DNA of 64,000 bases from Candidatus Chisholmbacteria bacterium (GTDB lineage: Bacteria > Patescibacteriota > Microgenomatia > UBA1400 > Chisholmbacteraceae), in the NCBI GenBank assembly GCA_963704905.1, contig CAVPHZ010000001.1:707438-771437 (forward strand). Reading direction: 5' to 3'. The translations under genes and the position numbers were made by a program. Shown here piece after piece: positions 28,527 to 63,500 of this stretch (the first letter of the stretch is position 1; every line of letters begins with the position of its first letter). Below the pieces are notes generated by a model that saw only the letters and a program-made list of their open reading frames with translations, was not told where the DNA came from and made no database searches.

Positions 28527-28597
28527 TGGACTCACCGGGAGTCGAACCCGGAATCTACCCATGCGAAGGGTAAGGTATACCATTTACCTATGAGCCC
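28527..28597 (-). tRNA. tRNA-Ala (anticodon CGC), CCA not encoded
   Basis: GGGCTCATAGGTAAATGGTATACCTTACCCTTCGCATGGGTAGATTCCGGGTTCGACTCCCGGTGAGTCCA. Cloverleaf with G3:U70, anticodon loop TT-CGC-AT, T-arm CCGGG/TTCGACT/CCCGG. Confidence 0.75.
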
Positions 28598-46550: not shown

Positions 46551-47141
46551 GTCTTCAACTATTTGTTCATCGGTGCGAGCATAGTCGTAAACTGTGGATC
46601 GTCGATCACACCGTTGAAGAATTGCTCACTGCCAGCGCGAGTTCGTGCACCTATTCGGATATCAACATCGCTAGCGTCTTGTATTACCAACGGACCGGAC
46701 GTGCTTATATTGAGTGTTGAATCAAGCCATAGTTTTGTTTCTGATCCTGCAGTTAGACGACGTGATATAAAGTGCCATTGTCCTGGGGTAATCGTTCCAA
46801 TGCTTGGGTCGCCACTCGGCTTGAACTCGTATAGACTCCAAATTCTACAGCTCCACTGGAACTTAATTGGCAATAGTACAACCTTTGGGACGTTCCACTA
46901 TCTTGTGCAATAATGATTTGTCTAACTGCTGCTGAGTTGGACTTTATCCATGCTGTTATCAGTCATGCTATTCCCTTCTAAATGGTCGTTGGTGCCTGTG
47001 GTCAAGTCGTCATCTCTTTCGTCAAAATCAAGTGCACCGCCAAATCTTCCAGGAACCCAATCTGATTCTGTCATACTAGCATCCGGAGGGTACCTTACTG
47101 CTTTGAGAGAGCGATCGTAGGCGGTGGTGCCAGTATTTTCG

Positions 47142-49073
47142 TCAATTGGCCAATAAGCGATACGGTCCCGGCGCCCAGTTGTAGAGGGCTTGTACCTGTT
47201 TTGGGGAAAGCGCGTGTTTATAGACACGCAGGTCATCAATGTGGCCATCATAGTAGTTGGCTGGTGTTCCTGAAGAGTCCTCGGCTCCTACGACTAACTC
47301 TCCCGCATCATTTCCAATAGACGAGGGAATAGTGCCTGTGGTAGAGCTGGCTTGAAGCTCTCCATTGACAAAGAGCTTGACCGTTTGAGATGACGCATCA
47401 TAGACTCCGACCACATGTTGGAGGGTATTGGCTGAGAGCGGTGTTCCAGTTGTGGCTTCATAGTTTGCGGCAGCATCTATATACATTCGTAGATTGGCCC
47501 CTTCCATTGCAAGCAGATAACTTTCATTGGCACCATCCCATTTGCCAATGATATCCTGACTCCCGGTTGTATCATCAGGGTTTATCCAAGCTGAGAGTGT
47601 GAGACTTCCGGTTACTGAGAGATAGGCATTATCCACCACATCAAAGTACTGTGATGATCCATTGTGCTCAGACCCGTTGCCAAACTTTGCACCGGTGAAG
47701 GTAGTGGTCCCGGTATTGGTCAGTGTTGTTCCATTTCCACTCAGATCTGTTGCATTTCCACTTAATTCATCCATCTTCCAGTAGCCGATGAGGCCGTCGG
47801 AGAGCCAGGAATTGTCGGGGCCGAAGGCGGCCGCATAGCTCTGATTGTAGTCTGATTTAATTTCAGCTTCAGAACGAGCGTAGCGGTAGACTTTGATTTC
47901 ATCCAAAAACCCTTCCCATTGGCCACCTGCGCCATCACCATCCAGACCAATGTAGAAATCGTCGCTGTTTTCGAGCGTACCGGTGGCAGCGATGGACGTA
48001 TCTGAAGCGACCTCTACGCCGTCGATATACAGGTTGATTGAGGTGGTGCCGTTTTTTACTGCGGAAAAGTGATGCCATTTGCTATCGGCATAATTGGCAG
48101 TGCTGGTCGCGATGTCGGAATTCGAGCCATTGTCGATAGTAAATGATATATAGCCTAAATTTTCCATTCTCACTTCATAACCGATGCCAGTATTTCTCTT
48201 CGTGATGATGTTGTCGGCTCCGGCAGGCGTACTTGTGTGGCGGAACCAGCCTGAGAGGGTAAAGTCCGTATTCGCATCAAAGTCAAGCTGATCGTCGTCG
48301 GTCCTGGTTAAGTATTGCTGGGTGGGGATGTCAAACTCGAAGCGCAAACACTTTCCTGAGATACACTCATCTTCAGTACGCCAGGTGGCATTGGTTTTTG
48401 AAAGGTCGATACCGTGGCCGGTTGCGTCGCAAGCGTCGTTGGTTCCGCCAGAGCAGGTGTTGTCCACGCCTTCGTCGAACTTCCAGTAGGCGACGGGGCC
48501 TGGGCTTGCTTCCTCAGCTTCATAGGAACCATAGGCCGGAACTGTCGGGGTGGTGGTTGCCAGTTTTCTGGTAAAGACGTGGTCGACGGAGAAAGTGTTG
48601 GTTATATCAGTAGTTTCTAGTCTGACATATTGTGCAGAGTTTGGATACTGTGTTGAGTGTGTGGCGCTTGTGCCATCAACGCTCAACACTGCATTGCTTG
48701 CACCTATGGTGATGTCGTACTGATGATAGGAGGTGTCTTCGGCGACCGCTGCTGTTGAGGATTGGGTTGTTCCTCCGTTGGCTGTCTCTGTTTCATGGTT
48801 CCCGCCGGTAGTAGCATCGAAGAACATGGCGGCTGAGTCGTCAGTTGTGTAGCTCGTAGTGATGGTGGCGGTGTTACTGAACCCAAGCCTTCCGAGTGCG
48901 GCGGTGTTATTTTGGCTGGCTCGCATAGTGACAACCTCAACGTCGTTATCTCCTGGGCTGGCATCACCAAATGTGTCGGCTGAGGCAATGCCTTCCAGGT
49001 CGGTGGCGTCGTCGGTAGCAAGAGGGAGAGGTTCCCAGACCCAACAGAAGGAGCATCTTCTTGATAAGCCCAT
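47142..49073 (-). CDS. LamG-repeat fragment (gene C)
   Basis: 643 aa with GFLDEIKVYRYARSEAEIKSDYN, GHIDDLRVYKHALSPKQVQALYNWAPGP. The small ORFs 46559..46873 and 46922..47251 between this and 45057..46550 carry the same kind of motifs in shifted frames. Confidence 0.55.
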   Translation of the reverse strand: MGLSRRCSFCWVWEPLPLATDDATDLEGIASADTFGDASPGDNDVEVVTMRASQNNTAALGRLGFSNTATITTSYTTDDSAAMFFDATTGGNHETETANGGTTQSSTAAVAEDTSYHQYDITIGASNAVLSVDGTSATHSTQYPNSAQYVRLETTDITNTFSVDHVFTRKLATTTPTVPAYGSYEAEEASPGPVAYWKFDEGVDNTCSGGTNDACDATGHGIDLSKTNATWRTEDECISGKCLRFEFDIPTQQYLTRTDDDQLDFDANTDFTLSGWFRHTSTPAGADNIITKRNTGIGYEVRMENLGYISFTIDNGSNSDIATSTANYADSKWHHFSAVKNGTTSINLYIDGVEVASDTSIAATGTLENSDDFYIGLDGDGAGGQWEGFLDEIKVYRYARSEAEIKSDYNQSYAAAFGPDNSWLSDGLIGYWKMDELSGNATDLSGNGTTLTNTGTTTFTGAKFGNGSEHNGSSQYFDVVDNAYLSVTGSLTLSAWINPDDTTGSQDIIGKWDGANESYLLAMEGANLRMYIDAAANYEATTGTPLSANTLQHVVGVYDASSQTVKLFVNGELQASSTTGTIPSSIGNDAGELVVGAEDSSGTPANYYDGHIDDLRVYKHALSPKQVQALYNWAPGPYRLLAN

Positions 49074-49630
49074 TTAAATGCGTTTGGAGTTGATCCAACT
49101 GAGAAGGCATCGAAGAATTCAAATGTTTTTTCGCCGCTGCTGTAGGCATCCGCTGACGGATTGCCATAGTACATATAAATAGTAGTGTCCTCATCAATGG
49201 ATGGAACTTTTACCCAAATATCATAGTCGCTGGCTGAGCAATCGATGGTGTCGGCGGAGTTATTTTCATCTTCAATCCAGTAATCGAGAAGTTTGCCGCC
49301 TGTATCGGTGAAGCGGAGGTCGTCGCAGTCTGCTTGGAGTTTTCCGGCAGTATTTAAACCGTCGACATCGACCTCATCTAGTTCAACCTGAAAATCAGTG
49401 AGAGTTGTGGAGCCGGTGTAGGTGATAATAATGGCTTTTCTGTGTGACCAAGAATCGTTGTACCATGCAGCTGAGGCGCTATCAGAGTGATATAAACTAT
49501 ATAGTACTACTGGGATTAATATCAATAGAAGACCGAGGGATATCGGAAACAAACGTCTCCTCAAATTTTCAATTTTCAATTTTCGAATTTTCAGTGAATG
49601 GTTCATAATTTTCGAATTATCAATTATCAA
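48704..49630 (-). CDS. N-terminal part of giant gene C: signal-anchor TM + DUF2341-like module
   Basis: MIIDNSKIMNHSLKIRKLKIENLRRRLFPISLGLLLILIPVVLYSLYHS...AAWYNDSWSHRKAIIITY...DCDDLRFTDTGGKLL...IYMYYGNPSA. After about aa 190 the frame is spurious; the real continuation is 47142..49073. Confidence 0.6.
   Translation of the reverse strand: MIIDNSKIMNHSLKIRKLKIENLRRRLFPISLGLLLILIPVVLYSLYHSDSASAAWYNDSWSHRKAIIITYTGSTTLTDFQVELDEVDVDGLNTAGKLQADCDDLRFTDTGGKLLDYWIEDENNSADTIDCSASDYDIWVKVPSIDEDTTIYMYYGNPSADAYSSGEKTFEFFDAFSVGSTPNAFKWAYQEDAPSVGSGNLSLLLPTTPPTWKALPQPTHLVMPAQEITTLRLSLCEPAKITPPHSEGLGSVTPPPSLRATQLTTQPPCSSMLLPAGTMKQRQPTEEQPNPQQQRSPKTPPIISTTSP
49564..49592. repeat. heptanucleotide tandem repeat (AATTTTC)x3 plus an imperfect 4th copy in the 5' coding region of gene C
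   Basis: aattttc aattttc aattttc gaattttc on the + strand, i.e. (GAAAATT)n on the coding strand encoding ...LKIRKLKIENL. More degenerate copies extend to about 49660. Confidence 0.6.
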
Positions 49631-49660
49631 TTTTCAAACAATTATTCAATCTTCTAATTT

Positions 49661-50035
49661 TCAATCTTTATATTTTCTACTTGATTGGATAATCTTGCTA
49701 AAAATCAATAGAAGTTCCTGTCCTTCCTTCCAGAGTTTTTTAATTGTTTCCTTTTTACCTGGATTTGTTTTAGCAAGTAACCGCAGCCAGTGTTTTGTTT
49801 CTTTTATTTCCTTTTTGCAGATTGCAATTTTATGTACGAAATCTCTTTTACTTTCGGCTTCAGTGGCTTCTGCATAATTGGCACCGATAGATCCTCCTGA
49901 TCCGACAAGTTGTTCAATAATCCTTCTATTCAGAGGAGAGATACTTATTGTCTTAAGAGCGTCAATGATCTCCTCTGCGTATATTGCTGTTCGTTCCTCT
50001 AGATCGTATCGTGTTTTTTTTACTGCTTGAGTCAT
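49661..50035 (-). CDS. four-helix-bundle protein (23S rRNA intervening-sequence protein / Avd-like family)
   Basis: 124 aa with ...LVGSGGSIGANYAEATEAESKRDFVHKIAICKKEIKETKHWLRLL..., matching the four-helix-bundle family that includes DGR accessory protein Avd. Confidence 0.75.
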   Translation of the reverse strand: MTQAVKKTRYDLEERTAIYAEEIIDALKTISISPLNRRIIEQLVGSGGSIGANYAEATEAESKRDFVHKIAICKKEIKETKHWLRLLAKTNPGKKETIKKLWKEGQELLLIFSKIIQSSRKYKD

Positions 50036-50069
50036 TGAAATTTGATTGATAATTGACCATTGAACATTG

Positions 50070-53000
50070 TTAATTTTGCGACGCTGTTGCCACTACATCA
50101 ATAATCCACCAGTTGAATTTGAGGTCGGCGGTGGCTGGGACCGGGGTTTCGACCCAGAATCCCTGACCTTCGTCGATGAGCGTGACTCCCAGCACTACCT
50201 GGGTCAGGCCGGCTGGGGTGATAAAGATTTTTGAGTTTTTGGTTACCGCTGATGTCTGCACATAGATGCTGCGCTGGTTGGCCGGAAGGGTGGCGCTACC
50301 AATGGAAGGAGCCTGGACCGTCGGTTGGGCTGGCGGTTGCTGTGGCTGACTGCTACCCGTGGCTTCGGTAGTTACGGCCAGGACAGCGGACTGGGTGGCG
50401 ATGGTGAGCTTGCCGGCAACCAGGTCACCAAATCCGGCTTTGGGTGCAGTGACTTCTTTGGCGGTTATTCTGCCTTCAATACTGATATCTCCCTGCGGGG
50501 TCAGGACGATTTTGCCGTTGAAGGCATCGATGTTCCCAGCTAGCGGGAGACTTTGGAGTTTGAGGTCCTGTGCTAGGGCATTGATGCTGGTATCGATATC
50601 ATCGATCTGGAGGAAACCGACGTTTAAGGTACCGAGAATGGTCGTGTCTTCAAGCACGGCTTTTCCGAGCAGTCTGAGGTCATGATCGATCTGCAATTCA
50701 TCTCCGACTAATGCAATGCCGTCGATGTTGAGGTCTCCACCCGTTGGTGTGCCTGAGCTGGTGGCTGGCTGGGCCAGATCGAGGAACTGTTCGAAGAGCA
50801 CCAGGTTGGCTTCCAAATCTGCAATTCTTTGGTCATGTTCTGAGAGCTGACCGCTTTGGGTGGCGACTTCCGTTTGAAGTTCATCAGTAGTGGTTGCGAG
50901 ACCAGCGATATCGCTAGAATGTGTTTCGAGAATGTCTTCAATTGTCTGGATTTCATCAGTCTGATCAGTTGATTGCTGGGCGAGATTGTCGAGATCCTGC
51001 AATGCCTGGTCAAGGTTCAGTTCAATTTGTTCCTGCTGAGCGCTGATATCGCCAAAGGTGTTTATGGCGAACAAGACATCTGATTCGTGCCAGCCAGGAT
51101 TAATGAAGAGCATGATTTGGTCAATACCGCTTCCGGCAGTCCAGGATTCCATGGCTTGTCCGATGACGTGGCCGGAATCTATGGCTTTAGTCGCTTGGCC
51201 ATTTTCTGAGGATGTTAGGAAGTCACCAGCGAGGATGGATGGTGAGTCTGGGTCAACATGGACCGGTACTCGTCCGGCAAGGGCAACGAGGTAGGAGTTT
51301 TCTTCTCCGCCATCACCAAGAATAAGCCCTGGCTGGGTTGAAATGATGCCGATGACGGTTGGGTCGTATGGCTCTCGTGCTTTGTGGATTCGAACGGTTT
51401 CGTTTGGATCGATTTTAACAACATCTCCTTCTTCGAGTTCTTCGGTTGAAACGAAGTACTCAGCAAGGTCGAAGCCTGAACCGGTGTTATGGTTGTCGCT
51501 GTCGTCCATGAAGCTGATGAGGTTCCAGGTCGAGCTGTTTAAGGCGAAGGTGATGACGTCTCCATCTGCCAAGGTGATGTCGGTTGAGCCGCAGTTGATG
51601 CTGGTGGTTGGCGTGCCGTCGCACTCGATGGTGGAGTTGGCGTCATTGACCTCGACGATGATGATCTGTCCGTCGGTGCCGTCGGTGAAGTTGGTGTAGG
51701 CGGTGCCGGAGGTGTTGGCGGTTATCCAGTGGGAGCCTGCTGACACGTCCGGAGTCGCGCTATCTGCCGTGAGCGTTTGCTGAGCATCAAGTGAAAAGCC
51801 GCCTTGGACGATTGCTGTTCCTTCTGCCGAGAGATCAAAGACAATGTCGCCGGAGTTGTAGGTCTTTAAGGTTAGGTTGTTGCTTTCTGAAGCTTCGCCG
51901 ACGTCAATGGTGAAGGGTGCGTCGGTTTTGATGTTTGAACTGGTCTGATTGGTAAAGACCAAATCATAAGCCATGGAAACATCCCCGCTGGCGGTGAAGG
52001 CGTGGGGGACGGCTGAGGTGATGCCGGTTTGGCTAACAGTGAATACGTCTGATCCATTGTTATAGACGGCGAACAGGTTTCCGGTGACGGTGGCATTGCC
52101 GTTGACATCGATGACGAACAAGTCTGCATCGGTGGTGTCTGCTGATCCCGGATTCCAAGCAAACCGTCCCAAGGCTCCATTGAGTGACCCGTCTGCGAGT
52201 CCTGTAGAAGTGCTTTCGACATACATGGCATTCCCGGTTGTAAGGGCATCTACGGAAAGTTGAATCCCTTGGGCTGTTGTTAAGGCATCGGCTTGGATAT
52301 CGAGGACATCGGCGTCAATCTGGGCAGCGGTGATTTGCATAGCGATTTGGTCAGTATCGTCGGTATCAAGGAGGAAGCCTGTTACTGCGTCTGTTGAGCC
52401 AACGTCGACTTCAAAAAGTGCAGTTGTTGAGGTATTCCCAACGACCACGCCACCGTCCCCCTCGATTCTCATGCGCTCGTTCGTAGTGGCCTCCCCACCC
52501 GTAAAGAGACGGATATCGTCACCAGAACCTGCTGCAATGAGCGATAAGCCGTTGAGATTGGCGGAAGAACTGACATACCCTCGGTTCCCGTAGACGTTTG
52601 CCGTAGTAGTTGATCCTCCGACGCCGAAGCTTGCGATGTTATTTCCACCCCCATCGTTCATGGCTTGGAGGTTTGCAAAACCATTTGCGTGGGTGTTTTC
52701 TACTAAGGTTCCGATTGCTCCACCGTCGAGACTATCCCCGATATGCAGATAGGAGAGCGGAGTTGATTCATTTGTGGCTTCTGATCCGAGCTGGAAAGCT
52801 CCATATCCCGCACTAGCCTGTTTCAATGCAAATTGAAGTACGGAGCCGTTGGTATCATACCCCCTTAACCAATATGCGTTTTCGTCAGAATTGTCAGTGA
52901 ACTCGAGGTCGAGAAGGGAAGTGTTTCCGGCAAGGTCAGCGTCCGAATTATCAATCTTCATGACCGTTCCGGTGTCGAGTGTGCTTGCCAGAAAAACGTT

Positions 53001-55643
53001 ATCTTCTGCGTAGATTCCATAGTCCCAGTTAGTGCCTTGCTGGTAGATGGCGTATTCGGTAGAGGTGGTTTGTGCGGCAAGATCCTCGATGTGAAGCCCG
53101 TAGGTAGTTGATCCGGCTACTGAGGTCAGATTACTGAAATCTAGATTGAGCCCGGTGAGCGCGCCGGTTTGGGTCTCGGCTGAGTCAAAGGCGATGTCTA
53201 CTAAAGTTCCAGTCTCAAAGACATCGGCGCCGATGTCGATAGGTGTGGCTGAATCAGCACCGAAGAGGATATCGACGTTTCCAGACATATTGATTCCTGT
53301 ATCCCATCCAGATCCGATGTTGATCGCTGTTTCTGAAGCGCTGCTGCCGGCGGTTCCGTCGATGTTGATAGCATAGAGTGTTTCATCTCCAGATGGAGTG
53401 TTGACTGTGTCGAGATTGAGATGGAGGAGTGATTCAGTGACTGCGCCGGCACTGTTGCCAAATTCTCCGGCGATGTAGAGCGCGTCAACTCCATCAGTGA
53501 CAATACCGGTTGTGTTACCGGTGAGGTTGATGACTGCTGCATCGACGGTTGGGATGGTGTTGTTGGTTGTGTTTTCCAGCTCAAACTGCGTATCACCAGC
53601 GTCTCCGTATCTCAGACTCAAGTAGTCTGAGATGGATGATTTAGTGATGACTCCGCCTGAACTTGAGAATGCTCCAGCACTTCCACCACCCTGATCGGTT
53701 GAGGCATCCATGAAGGCAATGAGTTTCCAGTCTGTTCCATCGTACTGCCAGGTGGTGACGTCTCCGGTAGCCGTGACAATATCCGTTGTTCCTCCACTTA
53801 AACCTGAAGAGGTGACGTCGAAGGTGATATCTCCATTGCTTTCGATCACGACAAATTGTCCTGGAGCAAGAGAGTCCGTGCCGGCGTCAAAGTCTGTGAT
53901 GGTGAAACTGGTTGAGCCGGTGATCCAGTTGGTTCCACCTGAAATATCTGGGGTTGCGTCCGCATCTGCGAGCGTTTGCTGTGCGCCAAATCCTATACCA
54001 GCTTCCGCCAGGATTCCGATATCGAGATTTGTTCCTTGTTGATAGAGGCCATACTCAGTTGAATTTGTTTGGCTGGCCGGGTCGTTGATGTGTATGCCGT
54101 ACAGATTGTTTGTGCCATCGGGAGTAAGGTTAGTAAGGTCGATGTCTATACCGAGAATGTCACCGCCTGATTGAGATGTCGCCCCTCCCCAGTCGATGTT
54201 GAGGATGTCACCACTGGTATTGTTGATGTCTAGGTCCAATGCTGTCTGGTCAACATCGTCTTGATCAATGGTGAGGGCGATGAGGTCTGCGGTTCCGGTG
54301 TCGATTTCTACGAGACCGGCTGGAGCGATAACATCTGCACCGATTCCGAGTTGACCGGTAGTGGTGATGGTGAGGAAAGCATTGGTTCCCGGTGTAGTGC
54401 CGTCTCCGATTTGGAAGAAATCGTCGTCGTCCCCGCCAGCATCTTCATCGACACCAATCCAGAAATCGGTATCCGTGGCGGTGGCGACGTCAAAGATGAT
54501 GCTGGGGTCGGCGTCTTGAAGCATGACGTTGCCTCCCGATGTTCCTCCTGGAGTGAGGAGGATGTTTCCGTAGTTGTAGGTGTTTAGCGTGAGATTGTTA
54601 CTTTCAAAACTCTCTCCGACGTCAATGGTGAACGGTCCGTATGACTCGATTTGGCTGGCAGTTTGGTTAGTAAAGATCGCGTCATAGGAGAAGGAGACAT
54701 CTCCGGCAGCGGTAAAGGAGTGGGGGACTGCAGATTCTATCTGGGTTTGGGAAACGGTGAAGACATCTGAGCCGTTATCATAGACCGCAAACAGATTCCC
54801 CGTGACTGTTGCATTCCCATTGACATCAATCACAAACAGGTCAGCATCAGTGGTATCTGCTGATCCCGGGTTCCAGGCAAATCTTCCCAGGGCTCCATTG
54901 AGGGATCCATCTGCAAGTCCGGTTGAGGTTGATTCCACATAGAGGGCATTACCGGTGGTTAAACCATCTGCTGACATGGCAAATAAGCCTGAGGTTTGGA
55001 TGGCATCGGCAGTGATATCGATGAGGTTTTCAGTGGTCAGGGCTCCGGTCCAGTCAATGTCAAACAGACCGCCTCTGGTTCCGGCGCCATTGAGGTCGAA
55101 GGTGGCGACGGTGCCGGTGGTGTTGTTGTCATTGACCTCAATCATGCTGGCGGTACGGGCACTGGCCGTATTGCCGATGACCATGGCTTGGGAATCAACC
55201 GCAGTTGCACCCAAGTCGATGTTGATGACGTCTCCAGTTGCTGCTCCGGCGCCGACGTTGACATCGATAAGGTTGCTCGTCCAGGCTTGTGCTCCAGTGG
55301 TGATGTCGATGAGGTTTTCGTTGGTGAACGCTCCGGAGGTATCGATATCAAAGATCCCTCCTCTTGTTGATGAGCTGTCAATATCAACGGTGGCGACCGT
55401 GCCGGTGGTGTTGTTCTCGGTGATCTGTACGGCTGATTGGGTTCTGGCTCCGGCTGAGGTCGACATGACTAACCCTTGAGCGCCCGTAGCTGCGGCGCCC
55501 ATTGAAATGTTGATTGCGTCACCGGTGTCGGCAATGTTGCCGAAGTTGAGGTCAACTAAGTTTCCTGATGAAGCAGCTGGTGGAGGTGGTGATATCGATG
55601 ATATTTGAGGCAGGACCACCAGTGATATTGAAGTCCATGACAT
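50070..55643 (-). CDS. C-terminal 1857 aa of a giant repetitive T/G/D/N/A-rich beta-solenoid-like surface protein
   Basis: The first 390 aa are identical to an internal segment of 55552..63993, and its start overlaps that ORF by 92 nt through a 1-nt indel. It has repeated ...NLIDITTGAQAWTSN... and GDxINIDLGATAV units, and a C-terminal module (DLAEYFVSTEELEEGDVVKIDPNETVRIHKAREPYDPTVIGIIS...GRVPVHV) followed by a coiled coil and tail. Confidence 0.7.
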   Translation of the reverse strand: MSWTSISLVVLPQISSISPPPPAASSGNLVDLNFGNIADTGDAINISMGAAATGAQGLVMSTSAGARTQSAVQITENNTTGTVATVDIDSSSTRGGIFDIDTSGAFTNENLIDITTGAQAWTSNLIDVNVGAGAATGDVINIDLGATAVDSQAMVIGNTASARTASMIEVNDNNTTGTVATFDLNGAGTRGGLFDIDWTGALTTENLIDITADAIQTSGLFAMSADGLTTGNALYVESTSTGLADGSLNGALGRFAWNPGSADTTDADLFVIDVNGNATVTGNLFAVYDNGSDVFTVSQTQIESAVPHSFTAAGDVSFSYDAIFTNQTASQIESYGPFTIDVGESFESNNLTLNTYNYGNILLTPGGTSGGNVMLQDADPSIIFDVATATDTDFWIGVDEDAGGDDDDFFQIGDGTTPGTNAFLTITTTGQLGIGADVIAPAGLVEIDTGTADLIALTIDQDDVDQTALDLDINNTSGDILNIDWGGATSQSGGDILGIDIDLTNLTPDGTNNLYGIHINDPASQTNSTEYGLYQQGTNLDIGILAEAGIGFGAQQTLADADATPDISGGTNWITGSTSFTITDFDAGTDSLAPGQFVVIESNGDITFDVTSSGLSGGTTDIVTATGDVTTWQYDGTDWKLIAFMDASTDQGGGSAGAFSSSGGVITKSSISDYLSLRYGDAGDTQFELENTTNNTIPTVDAAVINLTGNTTGIVTDGVDALYIAGEFGNSAGAVTESLLHLNLDTVNTPSGDETLYAINIDGTAGSSASETAINIGSGWDTGINMSGNVDILFGADSATPIDIGADVFETGTLVDIAFDSAETQTGALTGLNLDFSNLTSVAGSTTYGLHIEDLAAQTTSTEYAIYQQGTNWDYGIYAEDNVFLASTLDTGTVMKIDNSDADLAGNTSLLDLEFTDNSDENAYWLRGYDTNGSVLQFALKQASAGYGAFQLGSEATNESTPLSYLHIGDSLDGGAIGTLVENTHANGFANLQAMNDGGGNNIASFGVGGSTTTANVYGNRGYVSSSANLNGLSLIAAGSGDDIRLFTGGEATTNERMRIEGDGGVVVGNTSTTALFEVDVGSTDAVTGFLLDTDDTDQIAMQITAAQIDADVLDIQADALTTAQGIQLSVDALTTGNAMYVESTSTGLADGSLNGALGRFAWNPGSADTTDADLFVIDVNGNATVTGNLFAVYNNGSDVFTVSQTGITSAVPHAFTASGDVSMAYDLVFTNQTSSNIKTDAPFTIDVGEASESNNLTLKTYNSGDIVFDLSAEGTAIVQGGFSLDAQQTLTADSATPDVSAGSHWITANTSGTAYTNFTDGTDGQIIIVEVNDANSTIECDGTPTTSINCGSTDITLADGDVITFALNSSTWNLISFMDDSDNHNTGSGFDLAEYFVSTEELEEGDVVKIDPNETVRIHKAREPYDPTVIGIISTQPGLILGDGGEENSYLVALAGRVPVHVDPDSPSILAGDFLTSSENGQATKAIDSGHVIGQAMESWTAGSGIDQIMLFINPGWHESDVLFAINTFGDISAQQEQIELNLDQALQDLDNLAQQSTDQTDEIQTIEDILETHSSDIAGLATTTDELQTEVATQSGQLSEHDQRIADLEANLVLFEQFLDLAQPATSSGTPTGGDLNIDGIALVGDELQIDHDLRLLGKAVLEDTTILGTLNVGFLQIDDIDTSINALAQDLKLQSLPLAGNIDAFNGKIVLTPQGDISIEGRITAKEVTAPKAGFGDLVAGKLTIATQSAVLAVTTEATGSSQPQQPPAQPTVQAPSIGSATLPANQRSIYVQTSAVTKNSKIFITPAGLTQVVLGVTLIDEGQGFWVETPVPATADLKFNWWIIDVVATASQN

Positions 55644-57540
55644 TGGCTGAAGCGTTTAGGGATCCGGAGGAATTAATCTGGAAGATGGCGGCATCGTCGG
55701 AGGCAGAACCGGTGCTAGCGGTGGTGATATCAATTAATGCGTCGGTTCTTGCCCCACCTGCGTCAGCGACAACAAAGGCGCCACCGGCGAGGTTGCTTGA
55801 ACCCATGCTGATATTGTGAATGTCTCCGGTTGAAGCAGCGGCGCCGACATTGACGTCAAATATGTTTCCAGTCCAAGCTTGGGCGCCGGTGGTGATGTCG
55901 AATATATTTCCGGTCCAGGCTGCAGAAGTGTCGATGTCCATGAGCCAGCCGGCAGTGTTGGAGATGGCTGCGTTACTGACAACAAAGTTTTGCAGGGCTA
56001 CGGCGTTGGCCGGTACAGCGACGTTGAAGATGTCTCCGGTTTGAGCGGCGTTCCCAGGATTGATGTCAATGTAGTTCCCGGTTGCGGCTTGGGCTCCCGA
56101 GGTGATATCGATGACGTTTGAAGCAAAGGTTCCCGTGGTGTTGATGTCATAGATGTTGGCAAGTGAATTCAGGTTTCCTGATGCATTGATTTGGAAAATC
56201 GCTGCGTTGTCAGAGGCGGAACCGGTACTGGCGGTGGTGATGTCGATGATGGCGTCAGTTCTGGCGCCGCCGGCAGCTGAGACGACGAAGGCTCCTCCAG
56301 CGAGGTTGTTGGTTCCCATGTTGACGTTTAGAGCATCACCGGTTGAGGCTGCGGCTCCGACGTTGATATCAATGAGGTTACTGGTCCAGGCTTGAGCTCC
56401 GGTGGTAATATCGATTAAGTGCTCGGTTCCGAAAGCTCCGGTGGTGTCGATGTCAAAGAGACTTCCTCTTGTGCCACCAATGTTAAAGTCAAATGTGGGT
56501 ACTGTGCCGCTAGTATTATTGTCGTTAATCTCGACCATGCTGGCTGTTCTGATGCTTGAGGAGTTGCTAATGACCAAGGCTTGGGCGTTGACTGCGGTTG
56601 CACCTAGGTCAAGGTTGATGAGGTCTCCGGTAGCCGCAACAGCACCGATGTTCAGATCGAGAAGATTGGATGTGAAGGCTGCGGAGGCGGTGATATCAAT
56701 TAGATGTTCGGTTCCCAAGGCTCCAGTTAGGTTGGCGTCTAGGAGCCCTCCTCTGGTTTCAGCAGAATCCCATTGAATGGTGGGGACGGTTCCGGTGGTG
56801 TTGTTTTCATTGATGTCTATGAGGGCTGTGGTTCTTACCCCTGAAACACTGGTCAAATCAAGGGCCTCACCGGCGACTGCGGAAGAGATCGCTGCTCCGG
56901 TGTCCCATCCGGAGCCGATATTGATGGCTGTTTCACTGGCTCCGGTTCCGGTAATACCATCCAGATTTATTCCATAGAACAAGTCCCCAGATCCGCCTCC
57001 AGCGATAGGGTCAAAGTTCACATGAAGTCCTGAGATTGTTCCATCCGCGACGATATTTCCAGCCTCCATGATAAGGTACAACCCATCAACTCCATCGGTA
57101 ACGATTCCAGTGTTGGTTGCGCCAGAAGAGAGATCAATAGAAATTGCATCGGCGGTGGGAATGACTTGGTTGGTTGAGCTGTCGATTTCAAACTGAATAT
57201 CTGCTGCATCACCATATTGGAGCCGGAGTCTATCAGCAGCGGTGAATTTATCAATGATGCCTCCACTGGTGGTAAATGGCTGACTGGCCCCGGTGGCCCA
57301 GCCGCAGTTGGTGAGGGCCGGATCACAGAGCAGATCATCTCCCCAGTACAAGGATCCGGTGGCCTGTCCCGGTCCGGTACCGAAGTTGATGACGTTGTTG
57401 GCAGAGGCATCCACATTCAAGCCAATGGTGGTGCCATTGACCGAGAGTCCGGTATTGAACAGGGCATCGTCTTCCACATAGAGGCCATAGTCCCAACCGG
57501 TGCCAGCCTGATAGATACCATATTCATCGCCGTCTTTTGC
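54450..57540. repeat. segmental duplication copy 1 (about 3.1 kb) within the giant gene
   Basis: Near-identical to 57950..60740 (offset 3502 bp, then 3198 bp after a 304-bp indel); e.g. ORF 54996..55370 = 58498..58872 and 57018..57416 = 60216..60614. Confidence 0.7.
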
Positions 57541-60500
57541 ACTTCCTGCGAGATTTTGAAGGTAGAGTCCGTAGATGTTGTCATCGGTGGTTTGATCGGT
57601 GGCATTGTTAGCGGCAAGGATATTTAACCCTGCAAAGGTGTCGGCGTCATTGCCGGTATCTCCGGTGACATTCAAGTCCGCAAAGATGGCATCAACGCCA
57701 TTTGTAAGTGTACCGACATCCACGATCAAGGCATCTACGGTCGTGTCGGTGGTATCGGCATCTATGGTTAGCGAGTCGGCAGCTCCCAGGTCAAAGTTTC
57801 CGGCGCCATCGACATCAAATCTGGCATCTGGGATGCTATCACCGATGCCAACGTTTCCTGAAGTGTCTACCGTGAGGAAGATGTTAGACCCCGGAGTGGT
57901 GCCATCACCGATGTGGAAGTAGTCATTGTCATCTCCGCTTGCATCTTCCTGTACGCCAAGCCAAAAGTCAGTATCTGTGGCGGTGGCGACGTCAAAGATG
58001 ATGCTGGGGTCGGCGTCACTGAGGACAACGTTACCGGCGCTGGTGCTGCCGGGAGTGAAGACGATGTCACCGGCGTTGTAGGTATTGAGGGTGAAATCGT
58101 TACTTTCAAAACTTTCGCCGACATCAATGGTGAACGGACCGTATGACTCGATTTGGGAGGCGGTTTGGTTGGTGAAGATTGCATCATAGGAGAAGGAGAC
58201 ATCTCCGGCAGCGGTAAAGGAGTGGGGGACTGCAGATTCTATCTGGGTTTGGGAAACGGTGAAGACATCTGAGCCGTTATCATAGACCGCAAACAGATTC
58301 CCCGTGACTGTTGCATTCCCATTGACATCAATCACAAACAGGTCAGCATCGGTGGTGTCTGCTGATCCCGGGTTCCAGGCAAATCTTCCCAGGGCTCCAT
58401 TGAGGGATCCATCTGCAAGTCCGGTTGAGGTTGATTCCACATAGAGGGCATTACCGGTGGTTAAACCATCTGCTGACATGGCAAATAAGCCTGAGGTTTG
58501 GATGGCATCGGCAGTGATATCGATGAGGTTTTCAGTGGTCAGGGCTCCGGTCCAGTCAATGTCAAACAGACCGCCTCTGGTTCCGGCGCCATTGAGGTCG
58601 AAGGTGGCGACGGTGCCGGTGGTGTTGTTGTCATTGACCTCAATCATGCTGGCGGTACGGGCACTGGCCGTATTGCCGATGACCATGGCTTGGGAATCAA
58701 CCGCAGTTGCACCCAAGTCGATGTTGATGACGTCTCCAGTTGCTGCTCCGGCGCCGACGTTGACATCGATAAGGTTGCTCGTCCAGGCTTGTGCTCCAGT
58801 GGTGATGTCGATGAGGTTTTCGTTGGTGAACGCTCCGGAGGTATCGATATCAAAGATCCCTCCTCTTGTTGATGAGCTGTCAATATCAACGGTGGCGACC
58901 GTGCCGGTAGTGTTGTTCTCGGTGATCTGTACGGCTGATTGGGTCCTGGCTCCGGCTGAGGTCGACATGACTAACCCTTGGGCAGCGGTTGCCGTAGCAC
59001 CCATAGAGATGTTGATGGCATCTCCGGTGTCGGCAATGTTGCCGAAGTTGAGGTCAACTAAGTTGCCTGAACTTGCAGCTGAAGAAGTGGTGATATCAAT
59101 GATATTTGAGGCCGGACCGCCGGTGATATTGAAGTCCATGACGTTGGCGAGAGAGTTGAGGGCGCCGGAGGAATTAATCTGGAAGATGGCGGCATCGTCG
59201 GAGGCAGATCCAGTACTGGCGGTGGTGATATCAATTAATGCATCGGTTCTTGCCCCACCTGCGTCAGCGATGACAAAGGCGCCACCGGCGAGGTTGCTTG
59301 AACCCATGCTGATATTGTGAATGTCTCCGGTTGAAGCCGCGGCGCCGACATTGACGTCAAATATGTTTCCAGTCCAAGCTTGGGCGCCGGTGGTGATGTC
59401 GAACATATTTCCGGTCCAGGCCGCAGAAGTGTCGATGTCCATGAGCCAGCCGGCGGTGTTCGAGATAGCTGCGTTACTGACAACAAAGTTTTGCAGGGCT
59501 ACGGCGTTGGCTGGAACTGCTACATTGAAGATGTCTCCGGTGGCTGCGGCATTTCCCGGATTAATATCAAAGATGTTGCTGGTCCAGGCTTGAGCTCCGG
59601 TGGTAATATCGATTAAGTGCTCGGTTCCGAAAGCTCCGGTGGTGTCGATGTCAAAGAGACTTCCTCTTGTGCCACCAATGTTAAAGTCAAATGTGGGTAC
59701 TGTGCCGCTAGTATTATTGTCGTTAATCTCGACCATGCTGGCTGTTCTGATGCTTGAGGAGTTGCTAATGACCAAGGCTTGGGCGTTGACTGCGGTTGCA
59801 CCTAGGTCAAGGTTGATGAGGTCTCCGGTAGCCGCAACAGCACCGATGTTCAGATCGAGAAGATTGGATGTGAAGGCTGCGGAGGCGGTGATATCAATTA
59901 GATGTTCGGTTCCCAAGGCTCCAGTTAGGTTGGCGTCTAGGAGCCCTCCTCTGGTTTCAGCAGAATCCCATTGAATGGTGGGGACGGTTCCGGTGGTGTT
60001 GTTTTCATTGATGTCTATGAGGGCTGTGGTTCTTACCCCTGAAACACTGGTCAAATCAAGGGCCTCACCGGCGACTGCGGAAGAGATCGCTGCTCCGGTG
60101 TCCCATCCGGAGCCGATATTGATGGCTGTTTCACTGGCTCCGGTTCCGGTAATACCATCCAGATTTATTCCATAGAACAAGTCCCCAGATCCGCCTCCAG
60201 CGATAGGGTCAAAGTTCACATGAAGTCCTGAGATTGTTCCATCCGCGACGATATTTCCAGCCTCCATGATAAGGTACAACCCATCAACTCCATCGGTAAC
60301 GATTCCAGTGTTGGTTGCGCCAGAAGAGAGATCAATAGAAATTGCATCGGCGGTGGGAATGACTTGGTTGGTTGAGCTGTCGATTTCAAACTGAATATCT
60401 GCTGCATCACCATATTGGAGCCGGAGTCTATCAGCAGCGGTGAATTTATCAATGATGCCTCCACTGGTGGTAAATGGCTGACTGGCCCCGGTGGCCCAGC

Positions 60501-63500
60501 CGCAGTTGGTGAGGGCCGGATCACAGAGCAGATCATCTCCCCAGTACAAGGATCCGGTGGCCTGTCCCGGTCCGGTACCGAAGTTGATGACGTTGTTGGC
60601 AGAGGCATCCACATTCAAGCCAATGGTGGTGCCATTGACCGAGAGTCCGGTATTGAACAGGGCATCGTCTTCCACATAGAGGCCATAGTCCCAACCGGTG
60701 CCAGCCTGATAGATACCATATTCATCGCCGGCATCGGGAGTGCCTGCCAAGTTCTGGACCCGGATGCCATAGACAATGTCATCATCGGTACTGGTCTGGG
60801 TGGCCAGGACATCCAAGCCAATCAAGGTATCCACCCCGGCATCGGTGATGGTTTCAATATCCAGATTGATGGCTTGCTGGTTGGTGGTACTATCCAAATC
60901 TACATTGATGATGCCGGTGGTGCCGGTATTATCCGTGGTGGCGGCATCGATGGTCAGGTCATTGCCGGCTCCCAGGACCAAGGCCAAGTCGGTGACATCA
61001 CTGATAGCGCCACTATTGATATCGATGCCATTGATGGTCTCATCGGTCACCGTGGTTATATCCCCAGTGGCGGCGACTTGGAAGACGTTTCCGGTGCCGG
61101 CGGTGAGGGTGCCGGAGACATCCAGGTTGCCGGTGGTGCCGCCATCGGCCAAGGTCATCAGGTCATTGCCGGCATCATCTTCCCAGGTAAAGGTACCCCC
61201 ATCGGCAATCTGAATTTGGGTGGTGGTGTCATTGAAGAAGAGGTTGGCATCCCAGCCGGAACCAATGGAGAGGGCCCGTTCCAGGACGGTGCCGTCGGCA
61301 GAGGCAAGGTTGGCGATATTGATGCCGCTTAAGACATCGGCATCCCCGGTGGCGGCTGAGGTGACATCCACATTGATGGCACTGACGGTATCGACATTGG
61401 CATCGGCTCCTAAGGTGAGGTTGAAGTCGGTCTGACTGCCATCATCGGTGATGGTGTTGGTCCAGCTGTGCAGCCCCGTCCAAGCAAAGTCGTAGGCTTC
61501 GTTGACGGCCACATCATTGGCATTGACGGTAATCCCGGTGCCGGCACCCACCGTGAAGGTGACATCACCATCGGCACCCACCAGCACATCATCGGCTCCG
61601 CCGGTCAAGCCATTGCCGGCCACCGCATCTCCCAAGAGTCGGATGGTGAGATCCAAGTTCTCATCGGTGTCATCGCCATTGACCAGGTCGGTGAGGACAT
61701 TGCCATCGGTACTGGTAAAGCGCAGGACATTGCTGTCGACAATGGCATAGGTATCGGTATCGTCATCGGCAATGGTCCAGGAGGTGAAGGCAGAGGCTCC
61801 GGTAGCCCAGCCGCAGTTGGTGAGGGCCGGATCACAGAGCAGATCATCTCCCCAGTACAAGGATCCGGTGGCCTGTCCCGGTCCGGTACCGAAGTTGATG
61901 ACGTTGTTGGCAGAGGCATCCACATTCAAGCCAATGGTGGTGCCATTGACCGAGAGTCCGGTATTGAACAGGGCATCGTCTTCCACATAGAGGCCATAGT
62001 CCCAACCGGTGCCAGCCTGATAGATACCATATTCATCGCCGGCATCGGGAGTGCCTGCCAAGTTCTGGACCCGGATGCCATAGACAATGTCATCATCGGT
62101 ACTGGTCTGGGTGGCCAGGACATCCAAGCCAATCAAGGTATCCACCCCGGCATCGGTGATGGTTTCAATATCCAGATTGATGGCTTGCTGGTTGGTGGTA
62201 CTATCCAAATCTACATTGATGATGCCGGTGGTGCCGGTATTATCCGTGGTGGCGGCATCGATGGTCAGGTCATTGCCGGCTCCCAGGACCAAGGCCAAGT
62301 CGGTGACATCACTGATAGCGCCACTATTGATATCGATGCCATTGATGGTCTCATCGGTCACCGTGGTTATATCCCCAGTGGCGGCGACTTGGAAGACGTT
62401 TCCGGTGCCGGCGGTGAGGGTGCCGGAGACATCCAGGTTGCCGGTGGTGCCGCCATCGGCCAAGGTCATCAGGTCATTGCCGGCATCATCTTCCCAGGTA
62501 AAGGTACCCCCATCGGCAATCTGAATTTGGGTGGTGGTGTCATTGAAGAAGAGGTTGGCATCCCAGCCGGAACCAATGGAGAGGGCCCGTTCCAGGACGG
62601 TGCCGTCGGCAGAGGCAAGGTTGGCGATATTGATGCCGCTTAAGACATCGGCATCCCCGGTGGCGGCTGAGGTGACATCCACATTGATGGCACTGACGGT
62701 ATCGACATTGGCATCGGCTCCTAAGGTGAGGTTGAAGTCGGTCTGACTGCCATCATCGGTGATGGTGTTGGTCCAGCTGTGCAGCCCCGTCCAAGCAAAG
62801 TCGTAGGCTTCGTTGACGGCCACATCATTGGCATTGACGGTAATCCCGGTGCCGGCACCCACCGTGAAGGTGACATCACCATCGGCACCCACCAGCACAT
62901 CATCGGCTCCGCCGGTCAAGCCATTGCCGGCCACCGCATCTCCCAAGAGTCGGATGGTGAGATCCAAGTTCTCATCGGTGTCATCGCCATTGACCAGGTC
63001 GGTGAGGACATTGCCATCGGTACTGGTAAAGCGCAGGACATTGCTGTCGACAATGGCATAGGTATCGGTATCGTCATCGGCAATGGTCCAGGAGGTGAAG
63101 GCAGAGGCTCCGGTAGCCCAGCCGCAGTTGGTGAGGGCCGGATCACAGAGCAGATCATCTCCCCAGTACAAGGATCCGGTGGCCTGTCCCGGTCCGGTAC
63201 CGAAGTTGATGACGTTGTTGGCAGAGGCATCCACATTCAAGCCAATGGTGGTGCCATTGACCGAGAGTCCGGTATTGAACAGGGCATCGTCTTCCACATA
63301 GAGGCCATAGTCCCAACCGGTGCCAGCCTGATAGATACCATATTCATCGCCGGCATCGGGAGTGCCTGCCAAGTTCTGGACCCGGATGCCATAGACAATG
63401 TCATCATCGGTACTGGTCTGGGTGGCCAGGACATCCAAGCCAATCAAGGTATCCACCCCGGCATCGGTGATGGTTTCAATATCCAGATTGATGGCTTGCT

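What the first reader, a model, noticed from the sequence alone, without database searches (positions are those of the whole stretch)
49661..50035. Avd-like four-helix-bundle protein between the giant repeat genes, with no reverse transcriptase in view
The 124-aa protein (...GSIGANYAEATEAESKRDFVHKIAICKKEIKETKHWLRL...) belongs to the four-helix-bundle family. That family includes the accessory variability determinant (Avd) of diversity-generating retroelements, as well as proteins encoded in 23S rRNA intervening sequences. It sits exactly between the stop of the giant beta-solenoid gene and the start of LamG gene C, within a locus full of variable surface proteins. No RT gene and no obvious adenine-specific template/variable repeat pair were seen, and the LamG C-termini are not codon-AAC-rich like typical variable regions. 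It may be a solitary family member, or a DGR partner whose RT/TR lie outside the window.
Basis: partly seen in the sequence, partly recalled or inferred. Interest (0 to 1): 0.55.

Follow-up and report, generated by a model that had tools for sequence, protein, structure and literature searches.

The report
Four-helix-bundle gene inside a hairpin cassette
The small Avd-like gene is real but is not part of a diversity-generating retroelement; it belongs to a conserved, apparently undescribed ~500-bp cassette in which the gene is bracketed by inverted arrays of 7-base repeats, an architecture like the ORF-bearing intervening sequences of 23S rRNA but sitting between ordinary protein genes.

Summary
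The 124-aa ORF exists at 49661-50035, on the minus strand, and is a confident PF05635/TIGR02436 four-helix-bundle protein (AF2 pLDDT 90.8). The DGR reading is not supported. The window has no RT and no adenine-biased repeat pair. The protein misses the dedicated Avd profiles (PF22296, PHROG 3206) that recognise both BPP-1 Avd and a true CPR Avd. Only 2 of 80 relatives' loci have a DGR RT within 10 kb, never adjacent, and one of those DGRs has its own Avd. None of the 80 lies in 23S rRNA. The new observation is that the gene is the core of a ~507-bp cassette that fills the intergenic gap. Inverted arrays of a 7-nt unit (CAATTTT upstream, ATTGAAA downstream) flank the ORF and can pair into a ~35-bp stem around it. 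This recurs across CPR and other phyla (44 of 68 loci, z>=3). The two arms co-evolve (z=10; 13 of 29 pairs show compensatory changes). The gene is never antisense to both neighbours (46 vs 0), has no recurrent partner gene, and is under purifying selection (dN/dS 0.03-0.2). ORF-less hairpins of the same units occur nearby. Whether the arrays act as RNA or DNA, and what the protein does, remain unresolved.

The parts
50036..50069 (-). Upstream (5') repeat array. On the sense strand it reads CAATGTTCAATGGTCAATTATCAATCAAATTTCA, four CAAT units at 7-nt spacing followed by a degenerate CAAAT unit. It fills the whole gap between the upstream gene's stop codon and the ATG, and there is no Shine-Dalgarno motif.
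   Evidence: (inverted pairs I1, I3, I4).
49661..50035 (-). Four-helix-bundle protein gene, 124 aa, PF05635/TIGR02436, basic (pI 9.6, charge +7.7).
   Evidence: (family dN/dS 0.03-0.2).
49563..49660 (-). Downstream (3') repeat arrays: ATTGAAAATTGATAATTGATAATT... and GAAAATTCGAAAATTGAAAATTGAAAATTT. These are the reverse complement of the upstream unit and are predicted to pair with the upstream array and enclose the ORF.
   Evidence: direct family D1; inverted pairs I1-I8; z=4.5 for the window copy.
50070..50072 (-). Stop codon (TAA) of the upstream 1857-aa repeat/solenoid gene. The cassette begins at the next base.
49550..49562 (-). Ribosome-binding site GAGGAG (49557-49562) and TTG start (49550-49552) of the downstream DUF2341/LamG gene. 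The cassette ends immediately before it.
   Evidence: L001 gene call 3861 corresponds to window 49552.

Best explanation
This is a solitary, non-DGR member of the PF05635/TIGR02436 four-helix-bundle family. It is carried in a compact cassette of about 507 bp (window 49563-50069, minus strand) whose ORF is bracketed by inverted arrays of a 7-nt repeat. SHOWN: the cassette exactly fills the intergenic gap between two co-directional genes. It has no promoter-like or terminator-like signal above background and no Shine-Dalgarno motif. The same layout recurs in many CPR lineages and in other phyla. The two arrays co-evolve so that they stay complementary. The ORF is under strong purifying selection. 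The cassette is always in the sense orientation relative to its neighbours. ORF-less hairpins made of the same units occupy nearby intergenic gaps in some genomes. INFERRED: the cassette is transcribed by read-through as part of the host transcript. In that RNA the arrays pair into an imperfect stem of about 35 bp around the ORF. This is the architecture of ORF-bearing 23S rRNA intervening sequences, whose stems are cut by RNase III, so the stem is a likely processing or stability site that releases or regulates the four-helix-bundle mRNA. The basic protein has the fold of Avd and of 2RLD/2GSC, which crystallised with five chains. I infer that it binds nucleic acid, most plausibly the repeat arrays themselves, which have about five 7-nt units per arm. 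It does not take part in mutagenic retrohoming.
For: Family and fold. Not Avd: there is no PF22296 or PHROG 3206 hit, although BPP-1 Avd (123 bits) and the true CPR Avd in L071 (66.5 bits) both hit; hhalign probability is 2.5-4 %. No RT or TR/VR in the window. Only 2 of 80 relatives' loci have a DGR RT within 10 kb and none is adjacent. In L071 the DGR has its own Avd, and the relative sits between cysS and dnaB. There are no relatives in 2.9 million viral contigs. Cassette: inverted arrays at the window copy, and the minimum-energy fold pairs them around the ORF. Of 68 loci, 44 have a flanking inverted repeat with z>=3, median 34.5 matched bp. Own-versus-cross pairing gives z=10.1, 0 of 10,000 permutations. 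On the mini-element alignment 87.9 % of cells pair, 13 of 29 pairs change on both sides, 0 of 500 shuffles reach the observed value, and slid controls give <=52 %. Orientation is 46 (same, same) versus 0 (opposite, opposite), with median gaps of 71 and 120 nt. An SD-like motif occurs in only 4 of 67 loci. No promoter or terminator excess. Neighbours hit 113 Pfam families in 96 proteins, none in more than 4. dN/dS is 0.03-0.20. ORF-less hairpins are seen. IVS precedent: a 428-444-nt element with a 28-bp terminal stem around an S23p ORF, cut by RNase III (PMC4990558). Basic charge like Avd.
Against: No transcript data exist, so co-transcription and RNase III cleavage are inferences. The mismatch spectrum of the arms shows no sense-strand G-U bias (59 vs 70, p=0.38), and the sense fold is only modestly favoured over antisense (42 vs 27). 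The symmetry could therefore be selected at the DNA level. The whole-element fold is only z=-1.87 against shuffles. RNAalifold found no single consensus stem, and the structure tested was derived from the same alignment. About a third of loci show no significant inverted repeat. Periodic 7-nt units are not needed for a plain stem. Binding of the protein to the arrays is pure inference. The rest of the 772-kb contig was not examined for an RT.
Confidence: 0.6

Rival explanations
1. A DNA-level mobile or selfish cassette. The inverted arrays are terminal inverted repeats (or recombination sites) of a small element that spreads between intergenic sites. The ORF-less hairpins are its miniature derivatives, as in MITEs or the REPIN/RAYT relationship. 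The four-helix-bundle protein is an element-encoded factor needed for spread or maintenance. This is not mutually exclusive with the RNA-stem model.
For: Two Cloacimonadota genomes carry the same ~650-bp block at ~90 % identity, with sharp borders, between unrelated neighbour genes. Neighbour genes are heterogeneous. Eight of 80 loci have 2-3 copies within the +-10 kb fetched. ORF-less hairpins with lineage-matched units exist. The mismatch spectrum is symmetric between strands. The gene is AT-richer than its flanks in nearly all loci. The literature reports strain-unique four-helix-bundle genes (PMC8700078), and the IVS field has long suspected a transposon origin (PMC4990558).
Against: There are no target-site duplications in the window or in most loci; long flanking direct repeats occur only in L063/L065/L067 and L061, and more weakly in L060. 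The protein has no nuclease, transposase or recombinase domain. dS is saturated between the window copy and its closest relatives, so there is no sign of recent transfer. The AT bias can be explained by the Lys/Glu/Ile-rich composition. The two sister strains keep the cassette at the same site with 1 substitution. The strict sense orientation (46:0) is not expected from random insertion, although selection could produce it. No empty site was found.
Confidence: 0.3
2. It is the Avd of a DGR whose RT and template repeat lie outside the window, acting in trans on the neighbouring surface-protein genes.
For: The fold is Avd-like and the protein is basic. DGRs occur in CPR genomes, for example L071. 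PF05635 proteins are reported as common DGR neighbours (PMC10053308). The locus is rich in large surface proteins. A strain-variable patch lies in the 3' part of the adjacent giant gene.
Against: There is no RT within 49 kb on one side or 14 kb on the other, and no A-biased repeat pair. The protein misses the Avd-specific profiles that catch real Avds. Of 80 relatives' loci, 78 have no RT within reach and none has one adjacent. The variable patch is ~880 bp with 58 of 74 substitutions at third codon positions, mostly transitions, and no A bias, so it is a recombination tract and not a variable region. In the two DGRs examined here (BPP-1 and L071) Avd sits beside the template repeat and RT.
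Confidence: 0.04
3. The arrays are ordinary intergenic punctuation of these AT-rich genomes, such as terminator, attenuator or promoter-like hairpins. The four-helix-bundle gene is an unrelated small housekeeping gene that happens to lie between them.
For: ORF-less hairpins of the same units sit between co-directional genes. The downstream array contains TTGAAA/TAAT-like hexamers.
Against: Within the 64-kb window the arrays occur only at this gene. In ~1 Mb of loci, 40 of 65 arrays lie within 200 nt of a four-helix-bundle ORF that occupies well under 5 % of the sequence. The arrays track the gene across phyla while their unit sequence drifts. No terminator-like sites are found at the window cassette.
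Confidence: 0.06

Closest known systems
ORF-bearing 23S rRNA intervening sequences (IVS) of Coxiella burnetii and Leptospira, encoding the 'S23p' / PF05635 protein
   Same: The protein family is the same (PF05635). The element size is similar (~430-510 nt versus ~507 bp). The ORF is enclosed by terminal inverted repeats that form a stem of about 28-35 bp. There is no obvious ribosome-binding site. The element is transcribed as part of a longer host RNA, which is shown for the IVS and inferred here (PMC4990558).
   Different: It is not in rRNA: 0 of 80 relatives' loci and not the window copy. It lies between protein-coding genes. The arms are arrays of a 7-nt periodic unit. The ORF is under strong purifying selection, whereas the Coxiella ORF is reported as decaying and untranslated. 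ORF-less hairpins are dispersed nearby. RNase III cleavage is untested.
Avd (accessory variability determinant) of diversity-generating retroelements, PF22296 bAvd-like; structures 4DWL and 8UB7
   Same: Four-helix-bundle fold (TM ~0.7-0.8, rmsd 2.3-2.9 A). Small and basic (pI ~9.6 for both). The family crystallises with five chains.
   Different: No detectable sequence relationship (BLASTP E=1.3; hhalign 2.5-4 %; no PF22296 or PHROG 3206 hit). No adjacent RT, TR or VR. Absent from viral contigs.
BT_0352 (PDB 2RLD) and Xcc0516 (PDB 2GSC), uncharacterised 'S23 ribosomal protein family' four-helix-bundle proteins
   Same: These are the closest solved structures by sequence (2RLD, E=4e-12, ~29 % identity) and by fold (TM 0.72-0.84). 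They share the motif G(A/S)N..EA...S..DF..K..I..KE..ET..WL.LL.
   Different: Their function is also unknown. I did not examine their genomic contexts or whether they have flanking arrays.
REPIN/RAYT systems and MITEs (genes flanked by inverted copies of a dispersed palindromic repeat)
   Same: A gene is bracketed by inverted copies of a short repeat that also occurs as ORF-less hairpins in other intergenic regions, with lineage-specific matching of the repeats. This comparison rests on my own knowledge of REPIN/RAYT.
   Different: RAYTs are HUH transposase-like enzymes, and this protein has no catalytic domain. The hairpin copy number seen here is low. There are no target-site duplications.

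Membership tests
DGR Avd (PF22296 bAvd-like / PHROG 3206) | Sequence match to an Avd-specific profile | tested here: not met
   The window protein hits only PF05635 at E<=1 and does not hit PHROG 3206. The positive controls do hit: BPP-1 Avd (PF22296 123 bits; PHROG 9e-29) and the L071 CPR Avd (66.5 bits; 1e-20).
DGR Avd (PF22296 bAvd-like / PHROG 3206) | Gene adjacent to a DGR-clade reverse transcriptase | tested here: not met
   There is no RT in the 64-kb window by YxDD scan or by phmmer/hmmsearch with Brt and a 3-sequence RT profile. Only 2 of 80 relatives' loci have an RT within 10 kb, at 4.5 and 9.4 kb. The rest of the 772-kb contig could not be read.
DGR Avd (PF22296 bAvd-like / PHROG 3206) | Template/variable repeat pair with adenine-specific mismatches | tested here: not met
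   Self-BLAST of the window gave 132 imperfect repeat pairs, with a maximum single-base share of mismatches of 0.50. The strain-variable patch at 50370-51250 is dominated by third codon positions and has no A bias.
DGR Avd (PF22296 bAvd-like / PHROG 3206) | Four-helix-bundle fold superposable on Avd; basic surface | tested here: met
   AF2 pLDDT 90.8. 4DWL and 8UB7 superpose at TM 0.57-0.81 with E ~0.15-0.3. pI 9.6. The pentameric state cannot be tested here.
PF05635 / TIGR02436 four-helix-bundle ('23S rRNA IVS protein') family | Profile match above the curated cut-offs | tested here: met
   PF05635 55 bits (cut-off 33.8); TIGR02436 73.4 bits (cut-off 24).
PF05635 / TIGR02436 four-helix-bundle ('23S rRNA IVS protein') family | Fold of the solved family members 2RLD and 2GSC | tested here: met
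   Foldseek: 2RLD E=1e-5, TM 0.73-0.83; 2GSC TM 0.74-0.84. phmmer: 2RLD E=4e-12.
23S rRNA intervening sequence element | Inserted in a 23S rRNA helix (9, 25 or 45) | tested here: not met
   There is no rRNA in the window. BLASTN with E. coli 16S and 23S finds rRNA in only 2 of 80 loci, more than 5 kb from the gene.
23S rRNA intervening sequence element | ORF enclosed by terminal inverted repeats that form a long stem | tested here: met
   44 of 68 loci; z=10.1; 87.9 % paired, 13 pairs with compensatory changes.
23S rRNA intervening sequence element | Excision from the host transcript by RNase III | not testable with these tools
   This needs transcript mapping or an in-vitro cleavage assay.
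MITE / REPIN-RAYT-like mobile element | Same element at non-homologous sites, with sharp borders | tested here: inconclusive
   Met for L065 versus L067 (~650 bp, ~90 % identity, unrelated flanks). Not shown for the window copy: the sister strain has it at the same site, and the empty-site search found nothing.
MITE / REPIN-RAYT-like mobile element | Target-site duplication and an element-encoded or trans-acting transposase | tested here: not met
   There is no flanking direct repeat in the window or in most loci. The only domain is PF05635, with no PADLOC hit and no nuclease or recombinase match.

The most novel reading that the evidence does not exclude
PF05635 four-helix-bundle proteins outside DGRs are the protein partners of a widespread, undescribed class of intergenic hairpin elements. 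The pentameric protein recognises arrays of about five 7-nt repeats (5 x 7 = 35 nt, matching the median arm length). These arrays flank its own gene and also form ORF-less hairpins elsewhere in the genome. That would make a protein-plus-cognate-hairpin system that punctuates or processes operon transcripts, or propagates as a selfish cassette. The classical ORF-bearing 23S rRNA IVS would then be the special case of the same element landing in rRNA. This would give a first functional handle on a protein family that has been enigmatic since ORF-bearing IVSs were described in the early 1990s.
Probability: 0.25. Interest if true: 0.75.

Novelty: new variant of a known kind. Interest (0 to 1): 0.5.

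Why it matters
As flagged, the finding is ordinary. Solitary 'four helix bundle protein' genes are very common: more than 2,200 relatives were found, and at least 583 loci in species-representative genomes. This one is not a hidden DGR, so the neighbouring giant surface-protein genes should not be read as retroelement-diversified targets. The follow-up adds something new. This subfamily travels as a discrete cassette with co-evolving inverted 7-nt repeat arrays, is always sense to its neighbours, and is accompanied by ORF-less hairpins. That ties non-rRNA family members to the same stem-enclosed-ORF architecture as 23S rRNA intervening sequences. It suggests a concrete, testable hypothesis: the protein binds its own flanking arrays, and RNase III processes the stem. 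It also matters for annotation, because the arrays can be mistaken for coding sequence. Here the longest ORF of the downstream gene wrongly runs through the 3' array.

Tried and rejected
(1) DGR reading: RT motif scan, phmmer and profile search with Brt, A-bias repeat scan and Avd-specific profiles were all negative. (2) The strain-variable patch in the adjacent giant gene as a possible variable region: rejected, because it is dominated by third-position changes and transitions. (3) The AT-rich island as evidence of recent horizontal transfer: rejected as specific evidence, because the gene is AT-richer than its flanks in nearly all 79 loci scored (mean -8.7 points) and dS to the nearest relatives is saturated. 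(4) RNA versus DNA discrimination by G-U-compatible mismatches: inconclusive (59 vs 70). Sense versus antisense duplex energy is only mildly asymmetric (42 vs 27). (5) RNAalifold consensus on 20 mini-elements: no structure predicted, because the register is ambiguous. (6) General target-site duplications or flanking direct repeats: found only in the Cloacimonadota loci and L061, and more weakly L060. (7) Empty-site search in metagenomes with the exact 3' end of the upstream gene: 0 hits. (8) Reaching beyond position 64000 through the giant genes: their products are not on record, and the NCBI 772,908-bp contig was not returned. (9) Defence-system (PADLOC), phage (PHROGs, IMG/VR) and Rfam matches: none meaningful. 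(10) Organism name: none of the 8 window proteins looked up has a named or >=90 % identical relative. (11) Literature searches for the CPR cassette or arrays found nothing.

Full report
OBSERVATION. The ORF is real. It spans 49661-50035 on the minus strand and encodes 124 aa with an ATG start and a TGA stop. It matches PF05635 '23S_rRNA_IVP' at 55 bits (cut-off 33.8) and TIGR02436 'four helix bundle protein' at 73.4 bits (cut-off 24). AlphaFold2 on a 31-sequence alignment gives four helices with mean pLDDT 90.8. The gene sits 34 nt after the TAA stop (50070-50072) of the 1857-aa repeat gene. It lies upstream of the DUF2341/LamG gene. The probable start of that gene is the TTG at 49552, preceded by GAGGAG, as called on the sister contig L001. 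The 49630 start implied by the longest ORF runs through a repeat array. The window is ordinary chromosome (ribosomal protein S1, RadA, Rho, glycosyltransferases) on a 772,908-bp contig. The named relatives of the protein come mostly from Patescibacteria/CPR.

IS IT A DGR COMPONENT? Five independent tests say no.

(i) The window contains no RT. The only YxDD hits in long ORFs fall in the repeat genes or their antisense frames. phmmer with Bordetella phage Brt, and hmmsearch with a profile of Brt plus two CPR RTs, find nothing in the window.

(ii) Self-BLAST of the window gives 132 imperfect repeat pairs. In none of them does one base account for more than 50 % of the mismatches.

(iii) Pfam now has an Avd-specific family, PF22296 'bAvd-like'. 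It scores BPP-1 Avd at 123 bits and a genuine CPR Avd (L071:5761-6102) at 66.5 bits. The window protein gave only PF05635, even at E<=1. PHROG 3206 'Avd protein of DGR' behaves the same way. BLASTP and hhalign against both Avds are at noise level.

(iv) Context of relatives. Of 80 loci fetched from species-representative genomes, most with about 10 kb of flank, only two hold a DGR-type RT, at 4.5 and 9.4 kb from the gene. L071 is a clean internal control. It has a complete DGR with a target gene ending in ...FGFRCAR, its own bAvd, a non-coding gap and then the RT. Separately, the subfamily gene sits between cysS and dnaB.

(v) The subfamily has no relatives in 2.9 million viral contigs and no PADLOC match.

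The model superposes on Avd (4DWL, 8UB7) with TM about 0.7-0.8. However, the best matches are the non-DGR 'S23 family' structures 2RLD (E=1e-5) and 2GSC (by sequence).

One possible trap was a strain-variable patch in the 3' part of the adjacent giant gene. Across window 50370-51250 there are about 74-78 substitutions and a 24-nt indel relative to sister contig L001, with almost none elsewhere. Of the 74 substitutions scored, 58 are at third codon positions, transitions dominate, and there is no adenine bias. This is a recombination tract and not a DGR variable region.

Limitation: I could not read the contig beyond the window. An RT elsewhere on the 772 kb is therefore not formally excluded. 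In the two DGRs examined here, however, Avd sits beside TR and RT.

WHAT IS ACTUALLY THERE. The gene lies in an AT-rich island (27-39 % GC against about 50 %). It is flanked by repeats. Upstream on the sense strand the sequence is CAATGTTCAATGGTCAATTATCAATCAAATTTCA-ATG. Downstream there are arrays of ATTGAAAATTGATAATTGATAATT... and GAAAATTGAAAATTGAAAATTT, the reverse complement of the upstream unit. The same arrangement appears at relatives' loci in Nealsonbacteria, Wildermuthbacteria, Liptonbacteria, Amesbacteria, Falkowbacteria, Moraniibacteriota and others. It also appears, with drifted unit sequences, in Cloacimonadota, Deltaproteobacteria and GC-rich Verrucomicrobia.

Quantitatively:
- 44 of 68 loci have a flanking inverted repeat with z>=3 against shuffles (30 with z>=5), with a median of 34.5 matched bp.
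- The dominant unit spacing is 7 nt. The polarity is strict: CAAT upstream and ATTG downstream.
- Each upstream array pairs better with its own downstream array than with those of other loci (z=10.1, 0 of 10,000 permutations). The direct-orientation control gives z=3.3.
- On an alignment of 20 'mini-elements', a nested pairing has 87.9 % of cells paired, 13 of 29 pairs with changes on both sides, 0 of 500 shuffles reaching the observed value on any of the five measures, and <=52 % pairing when partners are slid. The caveat is that I derived the pairing from the same alignment, after RNAalifold had returned no consensus.
- The minimum-energy fold of the whole window element pairs the two arrays and encloses the ORF, although the overall z-score is only -1.87.

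OTHER PROPERTIES OF THE CASSETTE.
- Purifying selection on the ORF is strong, with dN/dS 0.03-0.20.
- The gene is co-directional with both neighbours in 46 loci and antisense to both in none. Median gaps are 71 nt upstream and 120 nt downstream.
- A Shine-Dalgarno-like tetramer precedes the ATG in only 4 of 67 loci.
- The window copy has no promoter or terminator excess.
- Neighbours are functionally diverse: 113 Pfam families in 96 neighbour proteins, none in more than 4.
- None of the 80 loci has the gene inside 23S rRNA.
- Eight of the 80 loci carry 2-3 family copies.
- The gene is AT-richer than its flanks almost everywhere (mean -8.7 points). The island is therefore a family trait, consistent with the Lys/Glu/Ile-rich protein, and not evidence of recent transfer.
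- Two Cloacimonadota genomes share a ~650-bp block at ~90 % identity, with abrupt borders, between unrelated genes. There it is additionally bracketed by a ~35-nt direct repeat. Such direct repeats are not general.
- Arrays of at least 3 units at 7-nt spacing occur 65 times in ~1 Mb of loci. Forty lie within 200 nt of a family ORF and 25 lie elsewhere.
- Some of the 25 are ORF-less hairpins that fill intergenic gaps between co-directional genes, for example two successive gaps next to the cassette in L028. Their units match the lineage-specific cassette units (only 4 hairpins).
- Rfam has nothing at this site.

MECHANISM. Shown: the items listed above. Inferred: the cassette has no expression signals of its own and is always sense to its neighbours, so it is most likely transcribed by read-through. 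In that RNA the arrays can form an imperfect stem of about 35 bp around the ORF. This is the architecture of the ORF-bearing 23S rRNA intervening sequences. In Coxiella that element is 428-444 nt with a 28-bp terminal stem around an S23p ORF of the same protein family, and RNase III excises it (PMC4990558). I therefore propose an IVS-like cassette living in mRNA operons, whose stem is a processing or stability site. The protein is basic (pI 9.6) and shares its fold with proteins that crystallised with five chains. It plausibly binds nucleic acid, perhaps the arrays themselves, which have about five 7-nt units per arm. That last step is speculation.

The main rival is a DNA-level mobile cassette of the MITE or REPIN/RAYT type. 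It is supported by the Cloacimonadota pair, the ORF-less hairpins and the strand-symmetric mismatch spectrum (59 vs 70 G-U-compatible mismatches, p=0.38). Against it are the absence of target-site duplications, the absence of any catalytic domain and the absence of recent copies. The two models are compatible, and the data cannot yet separate RNA-level from DNA-level selection on the symmetry.

COMPARISON AND NOVELTY. The protein is a member of PF05635/TIGR02436 (tested and met). It is not a member of the Avd family as now defined, because three defining features were tested and not met. The element works like a 23S IVS in architecture but fails the defining 'in 23S rRNA' feature. Tight intergenic placement of a 'four helix bundle protein' between housekeeping genes is visible in a published Flavobacterium table (gmk|4HB|nadD, PMC5524665), where it is not discussed. 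I found no description of the arrays, their co-evolution or the ORF-less hairpins in the searchable literature. That library is incomplete, so this is absence of evidence only. I rate the original finding as ordinary (a solitary family member, not a DGR), and the cassette as a new variant of a known kind.

VERDICT. Interest is 0.5. The score rests on the cassette architecture and not on the Avd resemblance.

Noticed in passing
window 47094-49022 (downstream DUF2341/LamG gene, minus strand): Relative to sister contig L001, where the gene is one intact 676-aa ORF, the window has single-base deletions at 49022 and 47550 and further 1-nt indels at 47094-47162. These split the gene into overlapping ORFs (48704-49630 and 47142-49073). 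The sites are not long homopolymers. This could be real pseudogenisation, phase variation or assembly error; it is undecided.
   Followed up: partly
window 50370-51250 (3' part of the 1857-aa repeat gene): This is a localised divergence patch between two otherwise ~100 % identical strains: about 74-78 substitutions plus a 24-nt indel. Of the 74 substitutions scored, 58 are at third codon positions and 49 are transitions. It looks like an imported recombination tract in a surface-protein gene and not DGR mutagenesis.
   Followed up: yes
L028:11274-11370 and 12109-12205; L021:7432-7545; L027:991-1097: These are ORF-less hairpins built from the same 7-nt units as the cassette arrays. They fill intergenic gaps between co-directional genes, and in L028 they occupy the two gaps that follow the cassette.
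   Followed up: partly
L065:5620-6250 and L067:9890-10530 (also L063; L061): In Cloacimonadota the cassette is additionally bracketed by a ~35-nt direct repeat (AAAGGTTAAATATGATTTT(T/A)TTAAGTAATTTCCA). The whole ~650-bp block is ~90 % identical between genomes at non-homologous sites. L061 has a different 41-nt flanking direct repeat.
   Followed up: partly
L071:4407-8519: A complete DGR in a Wolfebacteria MAG. The 769-aa target has a type IV pilin-like N-terminal methylation motif and an F5/8 type C domain and ends in ...FGFRCAR. It is followed by a bAvd (113 aa), a ~340-nt gap and the RT (338 aa).
   Followed up: partly
window 25316-28597: Three tRNA-Ala genes (two with anticodon GGC, one with CGC) lie on the minus strand within 3.3 kb, interspersed with protein genes. 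The middle one scores only 35 bits against the Rfam tRNA model.
   Followed up: no
window 55552-64000: The giant gene runs off the window edge and contains near-identical tandem units about 1311 bp long; antisense ORFs recur at 61468, 62779 and similar positions. The 2813-aa and 1857-aa ORFs overlap by 92 nt (55552-55643), and neither product is on record as a called gene. They may be one gene with a frameshift or may have different starts.
   Followed up: no
L079:3843-7749: Three PF05635-family copies lie within 4 kb in mixed orientation in one MAG labelled Saccharibacteria. Other loci (L004, L010, L029, L053, L069) have 2-3 copies within 10 kb.
   Followed up: no
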